Virus record (IMG/VR): IMGVR_UViG_2554235223_000001
DNA from: an uncultured virus (IMG/VR IMGVR_UViG_2554235223_000001)
Taxonomy: Duplodnaviria > Heunggongvirae > Uroviricota > Caudoviricetes
Length of the DNA stretch: 64,000 nt
Strand: one strand, 5' to 3'
The notes beneath the pieces were generated by a model, which did no database searches, was not told the DNA's origin, and saw only the letters and a list, made by a program, of their open reading frames with translations. This document shows positions 913 through 63,221 of the stretch, piece after piece; the first letter of the stretch is position 1, and every line of letters starts with the position of its first letter. The position numbers were made by a program, and so were the translations under genes.

Positions 913-2556
913 ATGCGCCTGAAATTGTCATCTCTCCTGGCAGCCGTTTCCCTGCTGTGTGGGCCAGCTTTTGCCGCCCCTGCGCTCCCCGACCGCGCCG
1001 ATATCCGCGATAGCGGTTTCGTCTATTGCGTCAGCGGCCAGGTTAATACCTTTAACCCGCAGAAAGTCAGCAGCGGCCTGATTGTCGATACGCTGGCCGC
1101 TCAGATCTACGATCGTCTGCTTGACGTCGATCCCTATACCTACCGGCTGGTCCCCGAGCTGGCGGAGAGCTGGGAAGTTCTCGATAACGGCGCCACCTAC
1201 CGCTTTCACCTGCGCCGCCACGTCCCGTTTCAACGCACGGCGTGGTTTACCCCGACGCGGGACTTTAATGCCGATGACGTCATTTTTACCTTTGGCCGTA
1301 TTTTTAACCGCGACCATCCGTGGCACAACGTCAACGGCAGCAGCTTCCCCTACTTCGACAGCCTGCAGTTTGCTGACAGCGTGGAGAGCGTCCGCAAGCT
1401 GGATAATCAGACCGTGGAGTTTCGCCTCAAGCGGCCGGACGCCTCGTTCCTCTGGCATCTGGCCACCCACTATGCGTCAATTACCTCTGCCGAATATGCC
1501 GCCCGCTTAACGCAGGACGACCGCCAGGAGCAACTGGATCGCCAGCCGGTTGGCACCGGCCCGTTCCAGCTATCCGATTACCGCTCCGGACAATATGTTC
1601 GCCTGCAGCGCCACCCCGGCTACTGGCGCGGCAAACCGTTGATGCCCCAGGTGGTGGTCGACCTTGGCTCCGGCGGCACCGGCCGCCTGTCGAAACTGCT
1701 GACCGGAGAATGCGACGTGCTGGCCTGGCCAGCCGCCAGCCAGTTGACGATCCTGCGTGACGACCCGCGCCTGCGCCTGACGCTGCGCCCGGGAATGAAC
1801 ATCGCCTGGCTGGCCTTCAACACCGCCAAGCCGCCGCTGGATAACCCTGAGGTGCGTCATGCCCTGGCGCTGGCGATCAACAACCAGCGCCTGATGCAGT
1901 CTATCTACTATGGCACCGCGGAGACGGCGGCGTCCATGCTGCCGCGGGCCTCGTGGGCCTACGATAATGACGCTAAAATTACCGAATATAATCCGCAGGA
2001 GGCCCGCGCCCGCCTGAAAGCCCTGGGGCTGGAAAACCTGACCCTCAAGCTGTGGGTGCCCACCAGCTCGCAGGCGTGGAATCCCAGCCCGCTGAAAACG
2101 GCGGAGCTTATCCAGGCGGATATGGCGCAGATTGGCGTTAAGGTGATTATTGTGCCGGTAGAGGGACGTTTCCAGGAGGCGCGCCTGATGGACATGAGCC
2201 ACGACCTGACGCTCTCCGGCTGGGCGACGGACAGTAACGATCCGGACAGTTTCTTCCGACCGCTGCTGAGCTGCGCGGCCATCGCCTCGCAAACCAACTT
2301 TGCCCACTGGTGTAACCGGGAGTTTGACGACGTGCTGCAAAAAGCGCTGCTCTCGCAGCAGCTCTCCTCGCGGATGGACGCTTACAAAGAGGCGCAGCGG
2401 ATCCTCGCCCGCGAACTGCCGGTCCTGCCGCTGGCCTCGTCGCTGCGGCTGCAGGCCTACCGCTATGATATGAAAGGCCTGGTGCTCAGCCCTTTCGGTA
2501 ACGCTTCGTTCGCTGGCGTATCGCGGGAAAATACCGAAGAGGTGAAGAAGCCATGA
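913..2556 (+). CDS. sapA: ABC transporter substrate-binding protein SapA
   Basis: Signal peptide, family-5 SBP motifs ([16 protein letters not shown]); first gene of sapABCDF. Confidence 0.95.
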
Positions 2557-3518
2557 TTATTTTTACCCTGCGCCGTCTGCTGCTGCTGCTAATCACTCTC
2601 TTTTTTCTGACCTTTGTCGGTTTCAGCCTGAGCTATTTCACCCCTCATGCCCCACTGCAGGGCGCTTCCCTGTGGAATGCGTGGCTGTTCTGGTTTGAAG
2701 GGGTGCTGCACTGGGATTTCGGCGTCTCCAGCATTAACGGCCAGCTGATTTCTGAGCAGTTGCGCGAGGTTTTCCCGGCGACCATGGAGCTGTGCATCCT
2801 CGCCTTCGGCTTTGCCCTGCTGATAGGCATTCCGGTGGGGATGATCGCCGGCGTAATGCGCAATAAATGGCCCGATACCCTGATCAGCGCCGTCGCGCTG
2901 GTCGGTTTCTCGATCCCGGTCTTCTGGCTGGCGCTGCTCCTGACCCTCTTCTTTTCCCTGACCCTCGGCTGGCTTCCGGTCTCCGGTCGCTTCGATCTGC
3001 TGTATGAGGTGAAAAACGTCACCGGTTTCGCGCTGATCGACGCCTGGCTTTCGGACTCGCCGTGGCGCCATGAGATGATCGTCAGCGCCGCCCGGCATAT
3101 GGTGCTGCCGGTATTGACCCTGGCGGTCGCCCCCACCACTGAAGTGATCCGCCTGATGCGCATTAGCACCAGCGAGGTGTATGACACTAACTATGTAAAA
3201 GCGGCCGCCACCCGCGGCGTGTCGCGACGCAAAATTCTACTGCGCCATGTGCTGCACAACGCCCTGCCGCCGGTGATCCCGCGTCTCGGCCTGCAGTTTT
3301 CCACCATGCTCACCCTGGCGATGATCACTGAGATGGTGTTCAGCTGGCCTGGACTAGGCCGCTGGCTGATCAACGCTATTCGCCAGCAGGACTACGCGGC
3401 GATCTCCGCCGGAGTGATGGTGATTGGCGCGCTGGTGATTATTGTCAACGTAATTTCCGATATTCTCGGTGCCATGGCTAACCCACTGAAACATAAGGAA
3501 TGGTATGCCCTACGATAG
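2553..3518 (+). CDS. sapB: ABC transporter permease SapB
   Basis: 321-aa permease ending [12 protein letters not shown]; overlaps sapA stop. Confidence 0.95.
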
Positions 3519-8427: not shown

Positions 8428-10806
8428 GCCTTTTTTGGAGCAAAAAACATGGCCTTTGATCCGCCACTTGGGAGCACTTCGCCCGCGGTGCTGCTCGATA
8501 ACGCCACTCGCCTGGATAACCTGCTGAATAGCCTGGCGCTGGTCTTCCCTGACCGCGCAGGCGAATTGCTTTACACCTGGCGTGGCATCCATCAAAATCT
8601 GATCCCGCTCAGCAAGCAATACATGACGTTAGCAGATGCGCAGGCAGATATCGTGAATATCCCTGTTGGCTCGACAACGTATTACCGCAGCCCGGATGAT
8701 AGTGCTCTTGCCGTCGAAGTGATCAATAACGGCGGTACACTTGAGGAAACTGGAAGGAAAATGCCTTCAGGTGCGGGGGTTGATGCAAAAGTAAGTGCTT
8801 TATATGAATACATAAATGATAAAATTGGCACCATTAATGTTTTGCTTAGCGAAATCTCATCACTTCCGCTAACTAAGTTTACCAGTATCTCAATGCCTGG
8901 TGACACTGTAGTCAATGTCGGGAAAGAATCTGTTTTACGCATTAACTCCCTGTCAGCTGCTGAAACTTCTGACGCCCGAAACCAGAAAAACACACTAAAA
9001 GTAACCCATCTGCAAAGCGGTGTCACAACAGTAATTGCAGAACTACTTCCGGCTGAATACTTTGCTGATAATGTACTTAACTCTCCATATCACTCTGTTC
9101 AATTGGCAAAGTTAAGACCAGCAACAGTTTTGTTTGATGAGACAAATTCAGTTGCCCGAGCAATATTTACCAATGTTCCGCTTATCAATACCTATAAATC
9201 GATCACTGCCTATGCCGTTATCGACAAGTCAGGTGATTTTATTTCCGGTAACACCGGTGCGTATGGCTCAGATGGTAAATATTGCACGCTTTACTCTAAC
9301 CCTGACGGCTCAACCTCAATCCAGCTAACATTCCCCTATTCTGATATTACGGGGGCAGGGTTTAGCATTACTGATGATGGCGTTAAAAACTATTTCTATG
9401 CCTCATTTGATGATGTACATCTTTATTACAGAAGTACCGATGTATCAGTATATAAAACGGCTTACCTTGCCAAATTAAGCGCCGAACCTGCGACAATTTC
9501 TGTAAACGATTATCTGACCATTGACGCAGATATTCTTTATTACAACGGAATTTCCAGGCAGAACACTGACAATAACCCTTTTACCCGTTTTGTTGCTGAT
9601 GTAGTAAATGACATGGCTACCGACTACAGTGGTCCTGTCGAGTTAAAAGTGAGTTTCCCTGCAGGAATGGTGTTTGGTCACAACTGCATTAAGGTATCTG
9701 ACGCTGAAGGAAACGTGTTTGATGCGCAATTTTCTGCAGATGATTTCGTGAACCTTCGCTTTCAGTCAACTGAAGGTTATCACCCTGATGGCTCATTCAA
9801 AACGGGGGCCGTGTGGATCGTCGATTCCGTATCGGCGGGACAAAAAAAATATTATAACGTGGATGTTTTTGGTTATCGCTATGATGATACGATCTATTCC
9901 GAAGGCCTGGAGTACTACGCGCCTTCTGATGCCCTGAAGCGTTATAACATTAAAGTGGGTGATTTGTATTACCGCTTTGGTTTTGCCGGTGGAGCCTATG
10001 GCCTCACATCCATTGATGCTGCTAAAAATGATGATATCAACCGTATCAGATGCACGCTAAGCCCGCAGCATCGCTACGTGACTGCAGGCGCTCAGGTTAT
10101 CGAATATTTCACCTACAACGTTACGCTGAAGGTAATCAATACCGGCCCGCTTTTTACCGAGATTGAGCGCACAGGCTACAATGCCGCCAGTGCCGTTTAT
10201 GCGGCAGGCATTATTAAGGCCACCACTCGCTTCCGCATTTTTAAAAACGGAATTGTCGTTGTGAAAAATATGGTGACTGCCCTGGAGGATATTCCTGTTG
10301 GTAAGATGTGTGGAGCAACTATTAGCTCTAATGTTATTTATAAAAACGGGACGACTCCAGCCTATTCCGGTACCGCTGCTGCAGCAATCACAACCGGAAA
10401 TACAGCCGGTAACGGCAGGTTTTCCTATGTGCCGACCATTGTAAACGGGGATATTCACAGGGATGGAACCTCTGCGGGCCCAACCAGACCGACAGGCATC
10501 ACGATGACGAATGCCGCGTCAGAGTTTACGCTGGGCGTAACCACAGGCTGGCAATATTCATCCCTGTCGGATTATTCATTTCTTAACTGGCCTGTTGAGA
10601 AAAACTGGACATGGACCATTGAAGCCTGGCTGAATGCCAGTGAAACTGAAACAGACCCGTTAACGCTTGCGAAGAAAGTTTACAATCGGCCTGTGGGTTT
10701 TGCGCGTGGCGGGAGACTTCCTAACTTTGCAGTAAAAGAAGCTGAGAATAAGCTGAGAGTATTGCTTGATGGGGTTGCTGACTTCTGGATGAATGGAGAC
10801 TCAGCT

Positions 10807-12135
10807 CTGAGAGATCCCCTCATAATTTCCCCAAAGCGTAACCATGTGTGAATAAATTTTGAGCTAGTAGGGTTGCAGCCACGAGTAAGTCTTCCCTTGT
10901 TATTGTGTAGCCAGAATGCCGCAAAACTTCCATGCCTAAGCGAACTGTTGAGAGTACGTTTCGATTTCTGACTGTGTTAGCCTGGAAGTGCTTGTCCCAA
11001 CCTTGTTTCTGAGCATGAACGCCCGCAAGCCAACATGTTAGTTGAAGCATCAGGGCGATTAGCAGCATGATATCAAAACGCTCTGAGCTGCTCGTTCGGC
11101 TATGGCGTAGGCCTAGTCCGTAGGCAGGACTTTTCAAGTCTCGGAAGGTTTCTTCAATCTGCATTCGCTTCGAATAGATATTAACAAGTTGTTTGGGTGT
11201 TCGAATTTCAACAGGTAAGTTAGTTGCTAGAACCCATGGCTCCTTTGCCGACGCTGAGTAGATTTTAGGTGACGGGTGGTGACAATGAGTCCGTGTCGAG
11301 CGCTGATTTTTTCGGCCTTTAGAGCGAGATTTATACAATAGAATTTGGCATGAGATTGGATTGCTTTTAGTCAGCCTCTTATAGCCTAAAGTCTTTGAGT
11401 GACTAGATGACATATCATGTAAGTTGCTGATAGGTTTCCAGTTTTCCGCTCCTAGGTCTGCATATTGTACTTTTCCTCTTACTCGACTTAACCAGTACCA
11501 ACCCAGCTTCTCAACGGATTTATACCATGGCACTTTAAAGCCAGCATCACTGACAATGAGCGGTGTGGTGTTACTCGGTAGAATGCTCGCAAGGTCGGCT
11601 AGAAATTGGTCATGAGCTTTCTTTGAACATTGCTCTGAAAGCGGGAACGCTTTCTCATAAAGAGTAACAGAACGACCGTGTAGTGCGACTGAAGCTCGCA
11701 ATACCATAAGTCGTTTTTGCTCACGAATATCAGACCAGTCAACAAGTACAATGGGCATCGTATTGCCCGAACAGATAAAGCTAGCATGCCAACGGTATAC
11801 AGCGAGTCGCTCTTTGTGGAGGTGACGATTACCTAACAATCGGTCGATTCGTTTGATGTTATGTTTTGTTCTCGCTTTGGTTGGCAGGTTACGGCCAAGT
11901 TCGGTAAGAGTGAGAGTTTTACAGTCAAGTAATGCGTGGCAAGCCAACGTTAAGCTGTTGAGTCGTTTTAAGTGTAATTCGGGGCAGAATTGGTAAAGAG
12001 AGTCGTGTAAAATATCGAGTTCGCACATCTTGTTGTCTGATTATTGATTTTTCGCGAAACCATTTGATCATATGACAAGATGTGTATCTACCTTAACTTA
12101 ATGATTTTTACCAAAATCATTAGGGGATTCATCAG
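10807..12135 (-). mobile_element. IS10 (IS4 family), 1329 bp, 9-bp TSD GACTCAGCT
   Basis: Ends CTGAGAGATCCCC / GGGGATTCATCAG; TSD at 10798-10806 and 12136-12144. Confidence 0.97.
10820..12028 (-). CDS. IS10 transposase
   Basis: 402 aa starting MCELDILHDSLY; YSKRMQIEETFRDLK (YREK) motif. Confidence 0.97.
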   Translation of the reverse strand: MCELDILHDSLYQFCPELHLKRLNSLTLACHALLDCKTLTLTELGRNLPTKARTKHNIKRIDRLLGNRHLHKERLAVYRWHASFICSGNTMPIVLVDWSDIREQKRLMVLRASVALHGRSVTLYEKAFPLSEQCSKKAHDQFLADLASILPSNTTPLIVSDAGFKVPWYKSVEKLGWYWLSRVRGKVQYADLGAENWKPISNLHDMSSSHSKTLGYKRLTKSNPISCQILLYKSRSKGRKNQRSTRTHCHHPSPKIYSASAKEPWVLATNLPVEIRTPKQLVNIYSKRMQIEETFRDLKSPAYGLGLRHSRTSSSERFDIMLLIALMLQLTCWLAGVHAQKQGWDKHFQANTVRNRNVLSTVRLGMEVLRHSGYTITREDLLVAATLLAQNLFTHGYALGKL

Positions 12136-13251
12136 GACTCAGCTGGAATAGGCGGTATGGATTCGAATGCCGGGCCATATGATATTAATACCCCGTGGGG
12201 ATACCTTGCATATCGTGAACTGCAAAAGCCCTCACCTAATATTGCGGCAGTATGGGCCAGGTTTAAACGGTGCTGGGATGATAACTGGCGAAGCACAAAT
12301 ATCGGAACCCGCTATCTTGAGGGGGTTATTAATGTTGCTGATTTGGTCACTCCGGTACTCAAACCATGTGTTTCTGTATATCGTGCGGCTGAGTTTTTGG
12401 GTGACACCGCAACAATGGCGGCAATGCAGCCTTATATTAAGTCCTGGGCTGACGCAATGGTTACAGCAGTCGCAGCAAAAGGAGGTGTGCCGAACACCTA
12501 TACGCCATCTTCAGTCAGTGCCGCCGTGAATATTAATATCTACGGCATGCTGCTTGTCGCGCTGGCAATACACGCCGGGATGGATACTGGCGGAGCTTAC
12601 CAGTCATGTTATAACACGGTGATGACGAATCTGACCAATAGCAGCACCATTGGTCGATATCTGCCAAGCATGCTGGATTCGATGCCAGTCAACACCTCCC
12701 TGGCAAGGAGCCGGTGGTACAACTACGATATGGACCTGGCGCCTGAATACCTCATGATGACGGAGTTACTCGGCGGAACGCCCCTGTTTAACAACGTCAA
12801 CTATGGACTTCAGGGGCTGTGCGGTGATGGCAGGCTGAGGGGGATTGATTTCATTATCTCTGAAAGCCGAAGGGGGATCATTTCGACTCCGGTTAGCGTT
12901 GCATTGACGATGATGCTGGTCCGACGGGTATCAACCGGAAATGCTCTGCTGGCTTGTGTTCAGGCCTACGAAAAAGATTATCTTACCAATCCGTATTCGT
13001 CCGGACGTTTCTATGGTTTCTCCCCACGCCTGGCGTCTGGCATACCAACGACTATCTCAAGTCATAACAAAGTGATGATTGAGATGTTGTCATCTTATTT
13101 TGTACACCAGATTGCAAAAGGTAAGGCGTCAGGAACGTAACTCTACTCGCCCCGAAGCCTGAAGCTAAAGGGCGCAAAAGATACTCATACACCCATGCAG
13201 ATTTAATGCCATTCATCGGCTTCCCCCGGGTGGCTCCGGGGATGATTTTAA

Positions 13252-51279: not shown

Positions 51280-51351
51280 TGAACTGTAAGTACATATTAA
51301 GTCGGAACTGATAGTTCACGCAAGTGATATTATGATTGAACATATGGTTCA
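51280..51351. promoter_or_regulatory. OR: three 15-bp operators (TGAAC-N5-GTTCA type)
   Basis: TGAACTGTAAGTACA at 51280, GGAACTGATAGTTCA at 51304, TGAACATATGGTTCA at 51337. Confidence 0.75.
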
Positions 51352-52054
51352 TGAAGAAAGAGCGCGAAAAGAATTCTCTCAGAGGCTAGCGCTGGCCTGC
51401 GATAAAGCTGGATTGATACCACATGGTCGACAGGCTGAGATCGCCAAGAGGATGAAGTTGACCCCTAAGGCCGTAAGCAAATGGTTCAATGGAGAGTCGA
51501 TTCCAAGACGCGGAACGCTGAAGGCACTGGCGTCTCACATTGGTACGTCAGCGTCGTATCTGCTCGGTGATGTCGATGAGGACGGAATCGATACAGAGAC
51601 AACCCCAACCCTTAAGGATGTCTTTCGCATTGACCTATTGGATATAACGGTTAGCGCTGGACCAGGCGTTATCAATCAGGAGTTCGTGGAGATCCTCCAC
51701 TCCGTTGAGTATGCGCCAGCGGAAGCCCGGCACATGTTCGATGGGCGTAAGGCTGAGAACATCCGGATCATCAACGTCCGGGGTGACAGCATGTCTGGGA
51801 CGATTGAGCCGGGTGATCTGCTGTTCGTCGACATCAGCGTTAAGAGCTTCGACGGCGACGGGATATACGCCTTCCTGTACGACGACACTGCTCACGTCAA
51901 GCGCCTGCAGAAGATGAAGGACAAGCTACTGGTTATCTCAGATAACAAGAGCTATGCAGCCTGGGACCCGATCGAAAAAGACGAGATGAACCGGGTGTTC
52001 GTGTTCGGCAAGGTGATCGGCAGCATGCCGCAGACGTACAGGAAACATGGGTAA
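51344..52054 (+). CDS. cI: CI repressor (HTH + S24 peptidase)
   Basis: AVSKWFNGES HTH; SAGPG cleavage site; GDSM and VKRL; start 51344 or 51332. Confidence 0.93.
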   Translation: MVHEERARKEFSQRLALACDKAGLIPHGRQAEIAKRMKLTPKAVSKWFNGESIPRRGTLKALASHIGTSASYLLGDVDEDGIDTETTPTLKDVFRIDLLDITVSAGPGVINQEFVEILHSVEYAPAEARHMFDGRKAENIRIINVRGDSMSGTIEPGDLLFVDISVKSFDGDGIYAFLYDDTAHVKRLQKMKDKLLVISDNKSYAAWDPIEKDEMNRVFVFGKVIGSMPQTYRKHG

Positions 52055-52076: not shown

Positions 52077-52196
52077 ATGTCTGATCTGATTATCCCAATA
52101 CTCATTACTTTACTGATTATCGGACTGGTTGGGATAGTGCTCAGGCTGGATAAAGTTTTCTTCAAGCGGAAGGATGAGCGGGATGACTTTGAGTGA
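52077..52196 (+). CDS. 39-aa single-TM protein (not in ORF track)
   Basis: MSDLIIPILITLLIIGLVGIVLRLDKVFFKRKDERDDFE*; GAGGA RBS. Confidence 0.65.
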   Translation: MSDLIIPILITLLIIGLVGIVLRLDKVFFKRKDERDDFE

Positions 52197-52314
52197 GCCA
52201 GACCGGTAGTTCGATGTGTTTTTGGTAATGCCGAAGACGTACAGGAAGCATGGGTAGCCAGCAAGTGGCCTGAAGAGATGTTTGGGTGATCTAGAAAGAC
52301 GAAAAATGGCGTTT

Positions 52315-52377
52315 GCCCGCCACAATTTAACAAGGAAAATCAAATGGTTAATGAGATAAAGCCAATATCGCCCCGCC
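52315..52377 (+). promoter_or_regulatory. aba-like (anti-BstA) 63-bp element
   Basis: GCCCGCCACAATTTAACAAGGAAAATCAAATGGTTAATGAGATAAAGCCAATATCGCCCCGCC; terminal CCCGCC repeats; ATG after 29 bp; resembles BTP1 aba as recalled. Confidence 0.75.
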
Positions 52378-52536
52378 AAGGAAATCTCCAATTATTTTCC
52401 TGTAAAAGAGGTTTGAGTTGAAGAAGTGGCAATAGGTGATCTGAATAATCTGGATCCATATCTTGTTATTAATGGGCTTTCACATTTGAGTAGAGTTGAT
52501 TCCGCAACAATGATTAGACTTTCCACAAATCTATGA
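52344..52536 (+). pseudogene. Decayed 5' relic of a bstA-like gene
   Basis: MVNEIKPISPRQGNLQLF, frameshift, then PVKEV*VEEVAIGDLNNLDPYLVINGL... Confidence 0.65.
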
Positions 52537-53677
52537 TGAAAGGGAGTAATGTATGACAGCTGAAATAGTAGTTATTAATAACACAGGGATCGCCCTAGCA
52601 GCTGATTCAGCTGTTACGACTGAACACAATAGGCTTATAAAAATTAATAACAGCGCTGAAAAGCTGTTTGAACTATCAAAGCATCACCCTGTTGGGATTA
52701 TGGTTTATAATAACGCTGCTCTAGGGGGAGCCCCCTGGGAACTGATTATAAAATCATATAGAAAGCAGCTTGGCACCGAAAAATTTGGTACCGTTAATGA
52801 TTATGTTCATGATTTCCTACATTACATCAATAAAAACGAGGACTTAATAACTCCCAGTATGCGCCAATCGTGCGTAATAAATTTAGTTATAGATAATATA
52901 AAAGGGTTGATGCAACACATTAACAGTAACAACATTGTTAACTATTTAACTTTAAACCCTGGAACTAACATAAATAACAATATATTTCAAAGCATAGTAA
53001 AACAACAAATTGATAATGAAATCAACGCATTGCGAAACAACCCTTTCTTTGAAGGTTTTGATGAGCGCGACTTAGGCGAAATCATCACATATATCTCAGA
53101 TGTAATAAAACCATTAATCCCGTCGGTTATAGTGCTTGATAACTTTGAGAGTTTAGAGGAAGATTTAATTGACAAAATAATATTATATTCCTCTTATTTA
53201 ATATGTAAGGTGCACACTAGTCGGACATACTCAGGTATAGTCATCACCGGTTACGGTGATAATGAATTTTACCCATCTATAAATACACTCCATGTATTCG
53301 GCATATACAAAGACAGAATTATGTTTAGATACGTTGAAGATAAAACACACAATAATATTTCGAATAACGGATATGTAATACCATTCGCCCAAGAAGATGA
53401 AGTGCTAACATTTATTGATGGTTGCAACCCTAACATTAATGTTTTCACCAACACACTCAGCGAAGAAATATTCGACAGACTCAATAATTTTATTGAAAGT
53501 AATATATACCCGAGTTTAAACAATCAACTACTAGAAGGTCAATTTAAAACCGAAGTTTCTCAACTCAAAAATTTAATTATGAGTGATTACGATAATAAGT
53601 TGAACAGTTACATTGAAAACAATCATACCAAGAAGATGACATCGATGCTTCAGTCTCTTGGCAAGGCAGACTTAGCA

Positions 53678-55006
53678 CTGATGAATCCCCTAATGATTTT
53701 GGTAAAAATCATTAAGTTAAGGTAGATACACATCTTGTCATATGATCAAATGGTTTCGCGAAAAATCAATAATCAGACAACAAGATGTGCGAACTCGATA
53801 TTTTACACGACTCTCTTTACCAATTCTGCCCCGAATTACACTTAAAACGACTCAACAGCTTAACGTTGGCTTGCCACGCATTACTTGACTGTAAAACTCT
53901 CACTCTTACCGAACTTGGCCGTAACCTGCCAACCAAAGCGAGAACAAAACATAACATCAAACGAATCGACCGATTGTTAGGTAATCGTCACCTCCACAAA
54001 GAGCGACTCGCTGTATACCGTTGGCATGCTAGCTTTATCTGTTCGGGCAATACGATGCCCATTGTACTTGTTGACTGGTCTGATATTCGTGAGCAAAAAC
54101 GACTTATGGTATTGCGAGCTTCAGTCGCACTACACGGTCGTTCTGTTACTCTTTATGAGAAAGCGTTCCCGCTTTCAGAGCAATGTTCAAAGAAAGCTCA
54201 TGACCAATTTCTAGCCGACCTTGCGAGCATTCTACCGAGTAACACCACACCGCTCATTGTCAGTGATGCTGGCTTTAAAGTGCCATGGTATAAATCCGTT
54301 GAGAAGCTGGGTTGGTACTGGTTAAGTCGAGTAAGAGGAAAAGTACAATATGCAGACCTAGGAGCGGAAAACTGGAAACCTATCAGCAACTTACATGATA
54401 TGTCATCTAGTCACTCAAAGACTTTAGGCTATAAGAGGCTGACTAAAAGCAATCCAATCTCATGCCAAATTCTATTGTATAAATCTCGCTCTAAAGGCCG
54501 AAAAAATCAGCGCTCGACACGGACTCATTGTCACCACCCGTCACCTAAAATCTACTCAGCGTCGGCAAAGGAGCCATGGGTTCTAGCAACTAACTTACCT
54601 GTTGAAATTCGAACACCCAAACAACTTGTTAATATCTATTCGAAGCGAATGCAGATTGAAGAAACCTTCCGAGACTTGAAAAGTCCTGCCTACGGACTAG
54701 GCCTACGCCATAGCCGAACGAGCAGCTCAGAGCGTTTTGATATCATGCTGCTAATCGCCCTGATGCTTCAACTAACATGTTGGCTTGCGGGCGTTCATGC
54801 TCAGAAACAAGGTTGGGACAAGCACTTCCAGGCTAACACAGTCAGAAATCGAAACGTACTCTCAACAGTTCGCTTAGGCATGGAAGTTTTGCGGCATTCT
54901 GGCTACACAATAACAAGGGAAGACTTACTCGTGGCTGCAACCCTACTAGCTCAAAATTTATTCACACATGGTTACGCTTTGGGGAAATTATGAGGGGATC
55001 TCTCAG
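53678..55006 (+). mobile_element. IS10, 1329 bp, 9-bp TSD GACTTAGCA
   Basis: Ends CTGATGAATCCCC / GGGGATCTCTCAG; TSD at 53669-53677 and 55007-55015. Confidence 0.97.
53785..54993 (+). CDS. IS10 transposase
   Basis: Protein identical to 10820-12028. Confidence 0.97.
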   Translation: MCELDILHDSLYQFCPELHLKRLNSLTLACHALLDCKTLTLTELGRNLPTKARTKHNIKRIDRLLGNRHLHKERLAVYRWHASFICSGNTMPIVLVDWSDIREQKRLMVLRASVALHGRSVTLYEKAFPLSEQCSKKAHDQFLADLASILPSNTTPLIVSDAGFKVPWYKSVEKLGWYWLSRVRGKVQYADLGAENWKPISNLHDMSSSHSKTLGYKRLTKSNPISCQILLYKSRSKGRKNQRSTRTHCHHPSPKIYSASAKEPWVLATNLPVEIRTPKQLVNIYSKRMQIEETFRDLKSPAYGLGLRHSRTSSSERFDIMLLIALMLQLTCWLAGVHAQKQGWDKHFQANTVRNRNVLSTVRLGMEVLRHSGYTITREDLLVAATLLAQNLFTHGYALGKL

Positions 55007-55220
55007 GACTTAGCATATATGGCGGAATCTTTGGTTAACCTAACGGCTTTCAAACGAAAAGTATCTCATGAATATGAGACTGTTGGCGGTCCAGTCGATG
55101 TTGCTGTATTATCAAAAGTAGATGGCTTTGTTTGGGTTAAAAGAAAGCACTATTTCCCGAAAGAGTTAAATTCTAACTTTTTCAAACGCTAACAACAGTT
55201 ACCAACTTTAGGAGAATCAA

Positions 55221-55328
55221 ATGTCCGTTAAACAAGCTCTTGATAGCGCTTATAAAATAATTATAAACCAGAAGTTTAGCTCTCAACCCCCTCAGAAAAC
55301 GAACGCTAAAAATTACAACGAGCAGTAA
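55221..55328 (+). CDS. 35-aa peptide (not in ORF track)
   Basis: MSVKQALDSAYKIIINQKFSSQPPQKTNAKNYNEQ*; AGGAG RBS. Confidence 0.6.
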   Translation: MSVKQALDSAYKIIINQKFSSQPPQKTNAKNYNEQ

Positions 55329-55329
55329 C

Positions 55330-55358
55330 AAAACCCGGCCTCGTGCCGGGTTTTTATT
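55330..55358 (+). terminator. Intrinsic terminator closing the cI-accessory operon
   Basis: AAAACCCGGC-CTCGT-GCCGGGTTTTTATT. Confidence 0.85.
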
Positions 55359-61337: not shown

Positions 61338-61353
61338 TATGCCCTACGATAGC
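61338..61353 (+). repeat. Right att core TATGCCCTACGATAGC
   Basis: Identical to 3504-3519; supplies the sapC ATG. Confidence 0.95.
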
Positions 61354-62229
61354 GTTTATCTGGAAAAGCGTCCGCCCGGCGCGCTGCGCACCGTATGGCG
61401 TAAGTTCTATGGCGACACCACGGCGATGATCGGTCTGTACGGCTGCGCGGGCCTGCTGCTGCTCTGCGTCTTCGGCGGCTGGTTCGCCCCCTATGGCATC
61501 GATCAGCAGTTCCTTGGCTATCAGCTGCTGCCGCCGTCGTGGTCGCGCTATGGCGAAGTCTCCTTCTTTCTGGGAACCGATGACCTCGGCCGCGATGTGC
61601 TGAGCCGGCTGCTGAGCGGCGCGGCGCCAACGGTCGGTGGCGCTTTTGTCGTCACCCTCGGCGCCACGCTGTTTGGCCTAGTGCTGGGCGTGATTGCCGG
61701 GTCGACTCACGGCCTGCGCTCGGCAGTGATGAACCATATCCTGGATACCCTGCTCTCTATTCCCTCGCTGCTGCTGGCGATTATCGTCGTCGCCTTTGCC
61801 GGGCCGCATCTGAGCCATGCGATGTTCGCCGTCTGGCTGGCGCTGCTGCCGCGCATGGTGCGCTCCGTCTACAGCATGGTCCACGATGAGCTGGAGAAAG
61901 AGTACATCATCGCCGCCCGCCTCGATGGCGCCTCGACGCTGAATATTCTGCTGTTCGCCATCCTGCCCAATATCGCCTCCGGCCTGGTGACCGAGATCAC
62001 TCGCGCCCTGTCGATGGCCATTCTGGATATTGCCGCGCTGGGCTTTCTTGATCTCGGCGCCCAGCTGCCTTCGCCGGAATGGGGAGCCATGCTGGGCGAT
62101 GCGCTGGAGCTTATCTATGTGGCGCCGTGGACCGTGATGCTCCCCGGGGCGGCGATTATGCTCAGCGTACTGCTGGTCAACCTGCTGGGCGACGGTATTC
62201 GCCGGGCGATCATTGCCGGGGTAGAATAA
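61339..62229 (+). CDS. sapC: ABC transporter permease SapC
   Basis: Starts [18 protein letters not shown] and SPEWG motifs. Confidence 0.95.
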
Positions 62230-63221
62230 TGCCGTTACTCGATATTCGTCACTTAACCATTGAATTTAAAACCAGCGAAGGCTGGGTAAAAGCCGTCGAT
62301 CGCGTCAGCCTGACGCTGACCGAAGGCGAAATCCGCGGCCTGGTGGGGGAATCCGGCTCCGGGAAAAGCCTTATTGCCAAAGCTATCTGCGGCGTGACCA
62401 AAGACAACTGGCGGGTCACGGCCGACCGCATGCGCTTCGATGACATCGACCTGCTGCGACTGTCGAACCGCGAGCGCCGGAAGCTGATCGGCCATAACGT
62501 GTCGATGATTTTTCAGGAGCCCCAGTCGTGCCTCGATCCCTCTGAGCGCATCGGCCAGCAGCTGATTCAGAGTATCCCCGGCTGGACCTACAAGGGCCGC
62601 TGGTGGCAACGGCTGGGCTGGCGCAAGCGCCGGGCCATCGAGCTGTTGCACCGCGTCGGCATTAAAGATCACAAAGATGCCATGCGCAGCTTCCCCTATC
62701 AGCTGACCGAGGGCGAGTGTCAGAAAGTGATGATCGCCATCGCCCTGGCCAACCAGCCGCGTCTGCTGATTGCCGACGAGCCGACCAACGCCATGGAGCC
62801 GACCACCCAGGCGCAGATTATTCGCCTGCTGACGCGGCTCAACCAGAACAACAACACCACCATCTTGCTGATCAGCCATGACCTGCAAATGCTCAGCAAA
62901 TGGGCGGATAAAATCAACGTCATGTACTGCGGGCAGACGGTGGAGAGCGGGCCCAGCGAAGAGCTGATCACCCTCCCACATCACCCCTACACCCAGGCGT
63001 TAATCCGCGCGATCCCGGATTTCGGTAGCGCCATGCCGCATAAAAGTCGCCTCAACACCCTGCCTGGAGCGATCCCACTACTGGAGCAGTTGCCTATCGG
63101 CTGTCGGCTGGGGCCGCGCTGCCCGTACGCCCAGCGCGAGTGTATCGAAACGCCGCGTCTTACCGGGGCGCGCAACCATCTGTACGCCTGTCATTTCCCG
63201 TTGAACATGGAGAAAGAGTGA
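62229..63221 (+). CDS. sapD: ABC transporter ATPase SapD
   Basis: Start [15 protein letters not shown] and LLIADEPT. Confidence 0.95.

What the first reader, a model, noticed from the sequence alone, without database searches (positions are those of the whole stretch)
52553..55358. Candidate undescribed defence system: proteasome-beta-like Ntn hydrolase in the RexAB/BstA slot
Seen: an AT-rich gene co-oriented with cI, 433 aa once IS10 is removed. After Met removal it starts with Thr1 and has Asp17 (ALAADSAVT), Lys36 (EKLF) and a C-terminal TVGGPVDVAVLSK. Known: Thr1/Asp17/Lys33 and a late SGG motif define proteasome beta/HslV proteases, and this slot carries anti-phage genes in lambda and BTP1. 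It is about twice the size of a beta subunit, with large helical inserts that could gate or sense. Inference: an infection-triggered protease that replaced BstA; the IS10 insertion is compatible with a fitness cost. I cannot exclude that it is already catalogued.
Basis: partly seen in the sequence, partly recalled or inferred. Interest (0 to 1): 0.85.

Follow-up and report, generated by a model that had tools for sequence, protein, structure and literature searches.

The report
Proteasome-like enzyme with tiny partner gene
A dormant virus in Klebsiella carries a broken copy of a widespread, untested relative of the proteasome's cutting subunit together with a tiny partner gene, in a spot where related viruses keep anti-virus weapons, so the pair is a good but unproven candidate for a new bacterial immune system.

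Summary
Observation confirmed. A 1329-bp IS with a 9-bp target duplication splits a 433-codon gene; intact alleles are common in Klebsiella. Thr1, Asp17 and Lys36 are invariant in 108 homologues and the model matches proteasome beta chains best (Z 17.1). The protein itself is probably not uncatalogued: it fits PMI-4 (Fuchs, Alva & Lupas 2021), a computational family with no function and no gene context reported. The scan met this family before on other DNA (e1-2561562). New here: (1) a small, fast-evolving ORF follows the gene in 153 of 155 assessable loci (92/155 with a ribosome site against 57/483 controls), so it is a two-gene unit; (2) it did displace bstA: an aba element and a frameshifted bstA start lie upstream, and a sister prophage has the same leader with intact BstA; (3) 5 of 12 sampled sister prophages hold RexAB, BstA or PADLOC candidates in this slot. 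Best reading: an anti-phage threonine peptidase held in check by its small partner. Defence, catalysis, trigger and binding are all untested; neighbours outside phages are mixed, and the IS says nothing about cost.

The parts
51332..52054 (+). Prophage repressor cI (HTH + S24 peptidase); its promoter probably drives the cassette
   Evidence: Pfam; co-transcription is inferred from orientation and from PMC8585504's discussion of this slot
52077..52196 (+). 39-aa hydrophobic ORF between cI and an older cI 3' end; shared with the BstA-bearing sister prophage L202
   Evidence: no family hit below E 0.02
52228..52256 (+). Second copy of the cI 3' end (27/29 like 52025-52053): scar of an earlier cassette swap
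   Evidence: (D2)
52315..52377 (+). aba-like self-immunity element left over from bstA; 57 of 63 bases match the published BTP1 aba
52344..52464 (+). Frameshifted 5' remnant of bstA (overlaps aba); similarity to intact bstA fades near 52464
   Evidence: L202 carries intact BstA, E 1e-123
52553..53677 (+). 5' part (375 codons) of the proteasome-beta-like (PMI-4-like) gene: Thr1, Asp17, Lys36, helical insert 1 and most of insert 2
53678..55006 (+). IS10-type element, transposase 53785-54993, 9-bp target duplication on both sides
55016..55192 (+). 3' part (58 codons + stop) of the same gene: last core helix, TVGGP loop, last two strands, conserved WxKRKHYF tail
55221..55328 (+). 35-aa partner ORF with its own ribosome site; intact in this genome
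   Evidence: (called on 160 contigs)
55330..55354 (+). Intrinsic-terminator-like hairpin with T run closing the unit
   Evidence: -17.2 kcal/mol, z -3.7, 1 of 200 shuffles as good; the consensus scan did not list it

Best explanation
A mobile two-gene anti-phage module: a proteasome-beta-fold threonine peptidase of the PMI-4 type plus a small cognate partner. SHOWN: fold, invariant Thr1/Asp17/Lys36, two helical inserts, the conserved two-gene layout, movement as a unit between prophage accessory slots, and displacement of bstA here. INFERRED: it is read from the repressor promoter in the lysogen; Met removal frees Thr1 with no propeptide; the inserts prevent a proteasome-like barrel, so the enzyme is a narrow-specificity peptidase rather than a bulk protease; the small, basic, two-helix partner binds it and keeps it off; infection (loss or displacement of the labile partner, or a phage protein binding the variable insert) releases it to cut a host or phage target and abort infection. 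In this genome the enzyme is dead (the IS removes the last helix and strands of the core) and only the partner is intact.
For: Fold: best 9 rows are 20S proteasome chains, top Z 17.1, rmsd 3.6, 187 aligned; Anbu 14.8, HslV 11.6, BPH 11.2, connectase 10.6; Foldseek agrees, E 6e-5. Catalytic residues invariant in 108 of 108. Partner: 153 of 155 assessable loci; 92/155 vs 57/483 with a ribosome site; 9 of 9 hits of the window-type peptide lie on contigs with the large gene; annotated as a CDS in 4 of the 8 annotated records opened that hold the gene. Slot: 5 of 12 sister prophages hold RexAB, BstA, a BstA-like KilA-N protein, PDC-M63 or PDC-M66; bstA remnant upstream. Other accessory slots: after cI in E. 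coli, between Q and lysis, reversed beside lysis, end of a Streptococcus satellite. 7 of 16 cellular loci have a credible defence gene within about 5 kb. Patchy, pan-phylum spread, 6321 representatives at 50% identity. The enzyme is broken while the peptide is intact, in a lineage seen on several contigs, which suits peptide = harmless part.
Against: No experiment. No PADLOC, NCBIfam or Pfam family covers it. 8 of 16 cellular loci had no credible defence neighbour, four lying among plain housekeeping genes, one had only methylases; loci were hand-picked and there is no background control. 7 of 12 slot loci gave no PADLOC hit. The active site departs from the proteasome: Val at Ser169, probably Ala at Ser129, and Asn instead of the family's Gly at the probable Gly47 position in this clade, so amidase or ligase chemistry is open. 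The partner subfamilies show no detectable homology to each other (probability 0.4%). The IS may be polar on the peptide, which would void the argument from the broken allele.
Confidence: 0.45

Rival explanations
1. RosmerTA-like logic: the peptidase is the antitoxin and constantly destroys the small protein, which is the toxin; infection or loss of the element lets the toxin build up (defence or addiction).
For: The conserved half is the enzyme and the hypervariable half is the small protein, as in RosmerTA (recalled); upstream enzyme, downstream coupled ORF; a RosmerTA locus lies near one homologue.
Against: The enzyme is IS-broken with the peptide intact here and in L173 and on 4 contigs, unless the IS is polar; the peptide has no membrane segment or known toxin family.
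Confidence: 0.15
2. Connectase-like ligase: Thr1 cuts the small protein, holds it as an acyl-enzyme and joins it to an incoming amine, tagging phage proteins, a ubiquitin-free conjugation defence.
For: Connectase is a monomeric proteasome homologue whose helical insert sets peptide specificity and which ligates (PMC8665760); inserts here should also block rings; altered Ser129/Ser169 positions; a dedicated small partner with a kept Phe-Pro motif.
Against: Fold is closer to proteasome beta than to connectase (Z 17.1 vs 10.6); the inserts are not at the connectase site (S3/S4); no shared cleavage motif across partner subfamilies.
Confidence: 0.1
3. Not defence: a stress or proteostasis accessory enzyme with a small assembly factor or propeptide in trans, which spreads through any permissive slot.
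For: Half of the sampled cellular loci lack defence neighbours; Fuchs et al. found no suggestive context and suggested ATP-independent clearance roles; the family lacks a propeptide.
Against: It replaced bstA in the RexAB/BstA slot; it recurs in prophage and satellite accessory sites; patchy spread, AT-rich.
Confidence: 0.22
4. The large protein acts alone and the small ORF is a by-product (translated junk or a remnant).
For: Low sequence conservation; the permissive rule behind 153/155 has no control; a few picks are doubtful.
Against: Ribosome-site enrichment 59% vs 12%; frequent overlap of stop and start; a shared motif in 42 picked ORFs from many phyla; invariant AYK in the window subfamily.
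Confidence: 0.08

Closest known systems
PMI-4 (and PMI-3), 'Proteasome homolog with Multiple Insertions', Fuchs, Alva & Lupas 2021, PMC8665760
   Same: Proteasome-like core with Thr1/Asp17/Lys, no propeptide, long inserts in the H1/H2 region and between H3 and H4; large family across most bacterial phyla, Euryarchaeota and phages (Table 1 row of PMI-4).
   Different: The paper reports no function, no gene context and no partner; the small ORF and the link to prophage defence slots are not in the main text I read. Direct comparison with its representative sequence or profile was not possible.
20S proteasome beta subunit / HslV / BPH / Anbu
   Same: Ntn fold (Z 11-17) and catalytic triad positions.
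   Different: Twice the length; VGG for SGG; PFAQ for GSG; no alpha subunit, unfoldase or Anbu-type operon among the neighbours examined; below Pfam's cut-off.
Connectase
   Same: Proteasome homologue with a helical insert and a specific peptide partner.
   Different: Inserts at other sites; H1/H2-region helices present; bacterial, mobile; ligation untested.
BstA/aba and RexAB
   Same: Same slot behind cI; this cassette sits on a bstA remnant.
   Different: No sequence relation; enzyme plus peptide rather than DNA-binding or channel proteins.
RosmerTA and other protease-containing defence or toxin-antitoxin pairs (recalled)
   Same: Conserved peptidase with a variable partner in a two-gene unit.
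   Different: Threonine Ntn fold rather than M78 metallopeptidase; no DNA-binding domain; partner only 30-80 aa.

Membership tests
Proteasome-like family (Ntn clan) | Beta-sandwich core of proteasome beta | tested here: met
   AF2 model pLDDT 89.5; Z 17.1, rmsd 3.6, 187 aligned; Foldseek E 6e-5
Proteasome-like family (Ntn clan) | Thr1/Ser1, Asp/Glu17, Lys33 | tested here: met
   T2, D18, K37 (ORF numbering) invariant in 108 of 108; D and K fall on Glu17 and Lys33 of Thermoplasma beta in a weak alignment, E 0.27. Geometry not measured.
Proteasome-like family (Ntn clan) | Gly47 oxyanion hole | tested here: inconclusive
   Gly is the family consensus after strand 47-53, but this clade has Asn54; equivalence inferred from position
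20S proteasome beta / HslV proper | Ser129 (GSG) and Asp166/Ser169 (SGG) helper residues | tested here: not met
   Invariant Val before GG; PFAQ with invariant Ala at the probable GSG site (placement inferred)
20S proteasome beta / HslV proper | Stacked rings, alpha subunit or unfoldase partner | not testable with these tools
   No oligomer model; no such neighbour among 121 proteins of 16 loci
PMI-4 | Long insert at the H1/H2 (pore-loop) site | tested here: met
   About 170 helical residues lie between strand 47-53 and strand 227-233, against two helices in beta; exact placement relative to H2 is not resolved (one search aligns part of it to beta H1-H2)
PMI-4 | Insert between H3 and H4 | tested here: met
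   Helices 293-322 and 325-368 between helix 281-289 and helix 371-391
PMI-4 | No S3/S4 insert (marks PMI-5/6, connectase); no propeptide | tested here: met
   Strands 38-40 and 47-53 are adjacent; homologues start M-T
PMI-4 | Large family, broad phyla, Euryarchaeota and phages (PMI-3 is small and narrow) | tested here: met
PMI-4 | Clusters with the paper's PMI-4 sequences (representative HDY66466.1, HHpred profile) | not testable with these tools
   Sequence, alignments, figures and supplement were not available; this is the defining test and it is open
Catalogued defence system (PADLOC 2.0, 2023) | Full-length match to a system profile | tested here: inconclusive
   No family matched more than 2 of 108 members, best E 8e-6; later catalogues (DefenseFinder updates) not available
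Abortive-infection system | Phage-dependent protection or death | not testable with these tools
   Needs the bench
Type II toxin-antitoxin pair | Toxic partner neutralised by direct binding or proteolysis | not testable with these tools
   Layout fits; toxicity and binding untested

The most novel reading that the evidence does not exclude
The pair is the first anti-phage system built on the proteasome fold, present in thousands of bacteria, archaea and phages: a non-barrel Thr1 enzyme controlled by, or conjugating, a small disordered partner, a prokaryotic parallel to PI31/Ump1-type peptide control or to connectase-type tagging of phage proteins. That would give PMI-4 a function and tie proteasome evolution to immunity.
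Probability: 0.4. Interest if true: 0.9.

Novelty: new variant of a known kind. Interest (0 to 1): 0.7.

Why it matters
Fuchs et al. listed 22 proteasome homologues with no clue to function and no gene context. For the largest PMI group this gives a partner gene, a candidate role and a two-gene, 1.5-kb test with an obvious catalytic control (T1A). If it protects, a proteasome-fold enzyme joins the bacterial immune arsenal, and a defence carried by Klebsiella and E. coli prophages but missed by PADLOC 2.0, Pfam and NCBIfam would bear on predicting phage susceptibility. The locus is also a clean record of cassette turnover: cI scar, aba and bstA remnant, new cassette, IS knock-out.

Tried and rejected
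Sequence libraries: no Pfam, NCBIfam or PADLOC family for either protein; PF00227 only weakly in 5 of 108 members, best E 0.0013; no PDB sequence hit for the 5' part. Insert 1 folded alone (pLDDT 91.6) has no clear structural match (best Z 4.8), which shows neither a new fold nor a sensor. No fused longer forms among 7999 candidates of 817-2330 aa (weak). Partner: no PHROG family for 42 ORFs, no atlas hit for one, subfamilies not linked by hhalign. Binding of the two proteins: no verdict, no complex model could be made. Promoter scan at chance level, 11 found vs 10.3 expected. IS as evidence of cost rejected: the truncated cluster members inspected (10 of 18) are 9 clean prefixes, probably contig ends, and 1 frameshift; 13 of 15 listed members of the main cluster are full length. 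Expression: contigs of 4 RNA-library runs from 2 studies cover the cassette and one ends at the hairpin, but contigs cannot show level or exclude DNA, and the runs were found with this gene; uncovered lytic genes prove nothing. The nearest held provirus G001 matched only the IS and a flank. The clustering of all neighbours of the 160 loci was planned but not run; 16 of 80 cellular loci were examined instead. Literature: searches found no paper linking a proteasome-like protein to anti-phage defence (41 timed out); term searches in three preprints found no 'proteasome' or 'Ntn'. Subscription journals and supplementary candidate tables were not searchable, so prior listing as a candidate is not excluded.

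Full report
1. Observation. The window holds a lambdoid prophage; close relatives of the gene are labelled Klebsiella pneumoniae, quasipneumoniae and michiganensis. Behind cI (51332-52054) lies an AT-rich gene (34-37% GC vs 52%) split by a 1329-bp IS at 53678-55006 with a 9-bp duplication. The parts, 1125 and 177 nt, are in frame and total 433 codons plus stop; both map end to end on PHROG 5990, 'unknown function'. Intact 433-aa alleles are common (P0260 on 149 contigs; the IS form P0266 on 4), and contigs in 4 of 4 runs laid skip the IS exactly. An identical IS copy lies at 10807-12135.

2. The protein. In 108 aligned homologues Thr1, Asp17, Ser18, Lys36 and the GG of TVGG are invariant. The model of an intact allele (pLDDT 89.5) matches 20S proteasome chains best (Z 17.1, rmsd 3.6, 187 aligned), then Anbu 14.8, HslV 11.6, BPH 11.2, connectase 10.6; Foldseek agrees. 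Extra length is helical: about 170 residues between strands 47-53 and 227-233, and helices 293-368 between the probable H3 and H4. The first insert is highly variable (20% mean identity), folds well alone, and has no clear match. Departures from the proteasome site: Val at Ser169, PFAQ at the probable GSG site, and Asn at the probable Gly47 site in this clade though Gly is the consensus. The last two placements are inferred from secondary structure; I did not measure geometry.

3. Is it catalogued? A scan note (e1-2561562) pointed to PMC8665760. I read its main text (parts 1-5 of 6; figures and supplement unseen, and these hold the alignments that would settle membership). PMI-3 and PMI-4 have inserts after H1/H2 and between H3/H4; PMI-4 is the large, broad one and the only PMI marked in phages. 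All features I could test fit PMI-4 (my odds about 0.8); the direct sequence test is open. The authors state that they found no genomic context suggestive of function.

4. The partner. Of 160 loci (80 cellular, 80 viral), 5 were too short; 153 of 155 have an ORF of 25-110 aa starting within -40 to +70 nt of the stop. That permissive rule has no control, a few picks are doubtful, and viral loci are redundant. With a ribosome site required the count is 92 of 155 against 57 of 483 ends of other long frames in the same loci. Many starts overlap the stop. 42 ORFs picked by eye from cellular loci share S-x-x-E...F-P...G-x-x-L-A, with Pro at 90% or more (selection inflates this). The window's subfamily has invariant AYK (10 sequences). 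The subfamilies are not linked by profile comparison. All 9 viral hits of the window-type peptide lie on contigs with the large gene. A hairpin with a T run closes the unit.

5. The slot. 52230-52464 is 82.8% identical to the BTP1 cI end and bstA start. 52315-52377 matches 57 of 63 bases of the aba element printed in PMC8585504 (passages read); the bstA frame is shifted and fades near 52464. Sister prophage L202 has a nearly identical leader followed by intact BstA, so the cassette did displace bstA. Of 12 of 80 prophages with a related cI that I opened, 5 carry PADLOC matches there (RexA+RexB, BstA, a BstA-like protein, PDC-M63, PDC-M66) and 7 do not. The pair also sits behind the repressor in E. 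coli, between Q and lysis genes, reversed beside lysis genes, among head genes of a Porphyromonas prophage, at the end of a Streptococcus satellite and on an Enterococcus plasmid.

6. Cellular neighbourhoods. In 16 of 80 loci, picked for full flanks and variety, 121 neighbours were scanned. Seven loci have a credible defence gene within about 5 kb (PDC-S26; R-M methylase at a prophage end; PDC-S01; type IV REase with a zeta-like protein; dCTP deaminase; type III methylase with a NucC-like protein; RosmerTA), one has methylases only, eight have none, four of these amid housekeeping genes. I discounted cross-hits of UvrD, FtsK and a radical SAM protein. There is no background control, so this is suggestive only.

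7. Mechanism. Shown: fold, catalytic conservation, two-gene layout, mobility, bstA displacement. Inferred: lysogenic expression from the repressor promoter (RNA contigs are weak support at best); a non-barrel, specific peptidase (PMC8665760 argues such inserts hinder rings); control by the small protein; release on infection. I put this at 0.45; reversed toxin-antitoxin logic 0.15; connectase-like tagging 0.10; non-defence role 0.22; peptide irrelevant 0.08. Some anti-phage role overall: about 0.6-0.65. The broken enzyme with intact peptide favours the peptide as the harmless part, unless the IS is polar. The IS is no evidence of cost.

8. Novelty. The protein family is probably known on paper only. 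The partner gene and the defence link were not found in searches or in term searches of three preprints; subscription papers and supplementary tables were out of reach. RosmerTA logic, PI31/Ump1 and the name IS10 are recalled, not from calls. Verdict: new variant of a known kind, a strong and cheap-to-test candidate; interest 0.70.

Noticed in passing
window 10807-12135 (minus): Second, 100% identical IS copy with its own 9-bp duplication, splitting a long tail-spike/depolymerase-like gene (8449-13140) of the same prophage (gene identity by eye).
   Followed up: partly
window 913-3518 and 61339-63221: The prophage appears to be inserted between sapB-like and sapC-like ABC transporter genes (names recalled from the translations, not tested).
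   Followed up: no
window 52077-52196: 39-aa hydrophobic ORF directly behind cI, kept in several sister prophages whatever cassette follows; possible superinfection-exclusion peptide.
   Followed up: partly
window 52315-52377: An aba variant is kept although bstA is dead; it is nearly identical to that of L202, so it might still shield this phage from that BstA variant.
   Followed up: partly
L186:5381-6933, L190 same; L193:4769-5787; L208:4778-5601; L188:4855-5910; L174, L199 single ORFs: Further occupants of the cI slot without PADLOC match (a 340-aa plus membrane-protein pair, two-gene units, a ParA-like ATPase): uncatalogued defence candidates.
   Followed up: partly
L044:6531-7475 and L062:12873-14649: HTH + M78 (RmrA/IrrE-like) peptidase genes near the family in two loci.
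   Followed up: no
L067 and L072: Homologues with frameshifted large genes in two cellular genomes; may be assembly errors.
   Followed up: no
P0003 cluster (E. coli): Databases annotate a 466-aa start 33 codons too far upstream, which hides the N-terminal Thr.
   Followed up: partly
ESM atlas: A 325-aa, half-archaeal cluster with PF00227 in 75% of members scores 0.89 to this protein: a possible bridge (PHI-like) between it and the proteasome.
   Followed up: no
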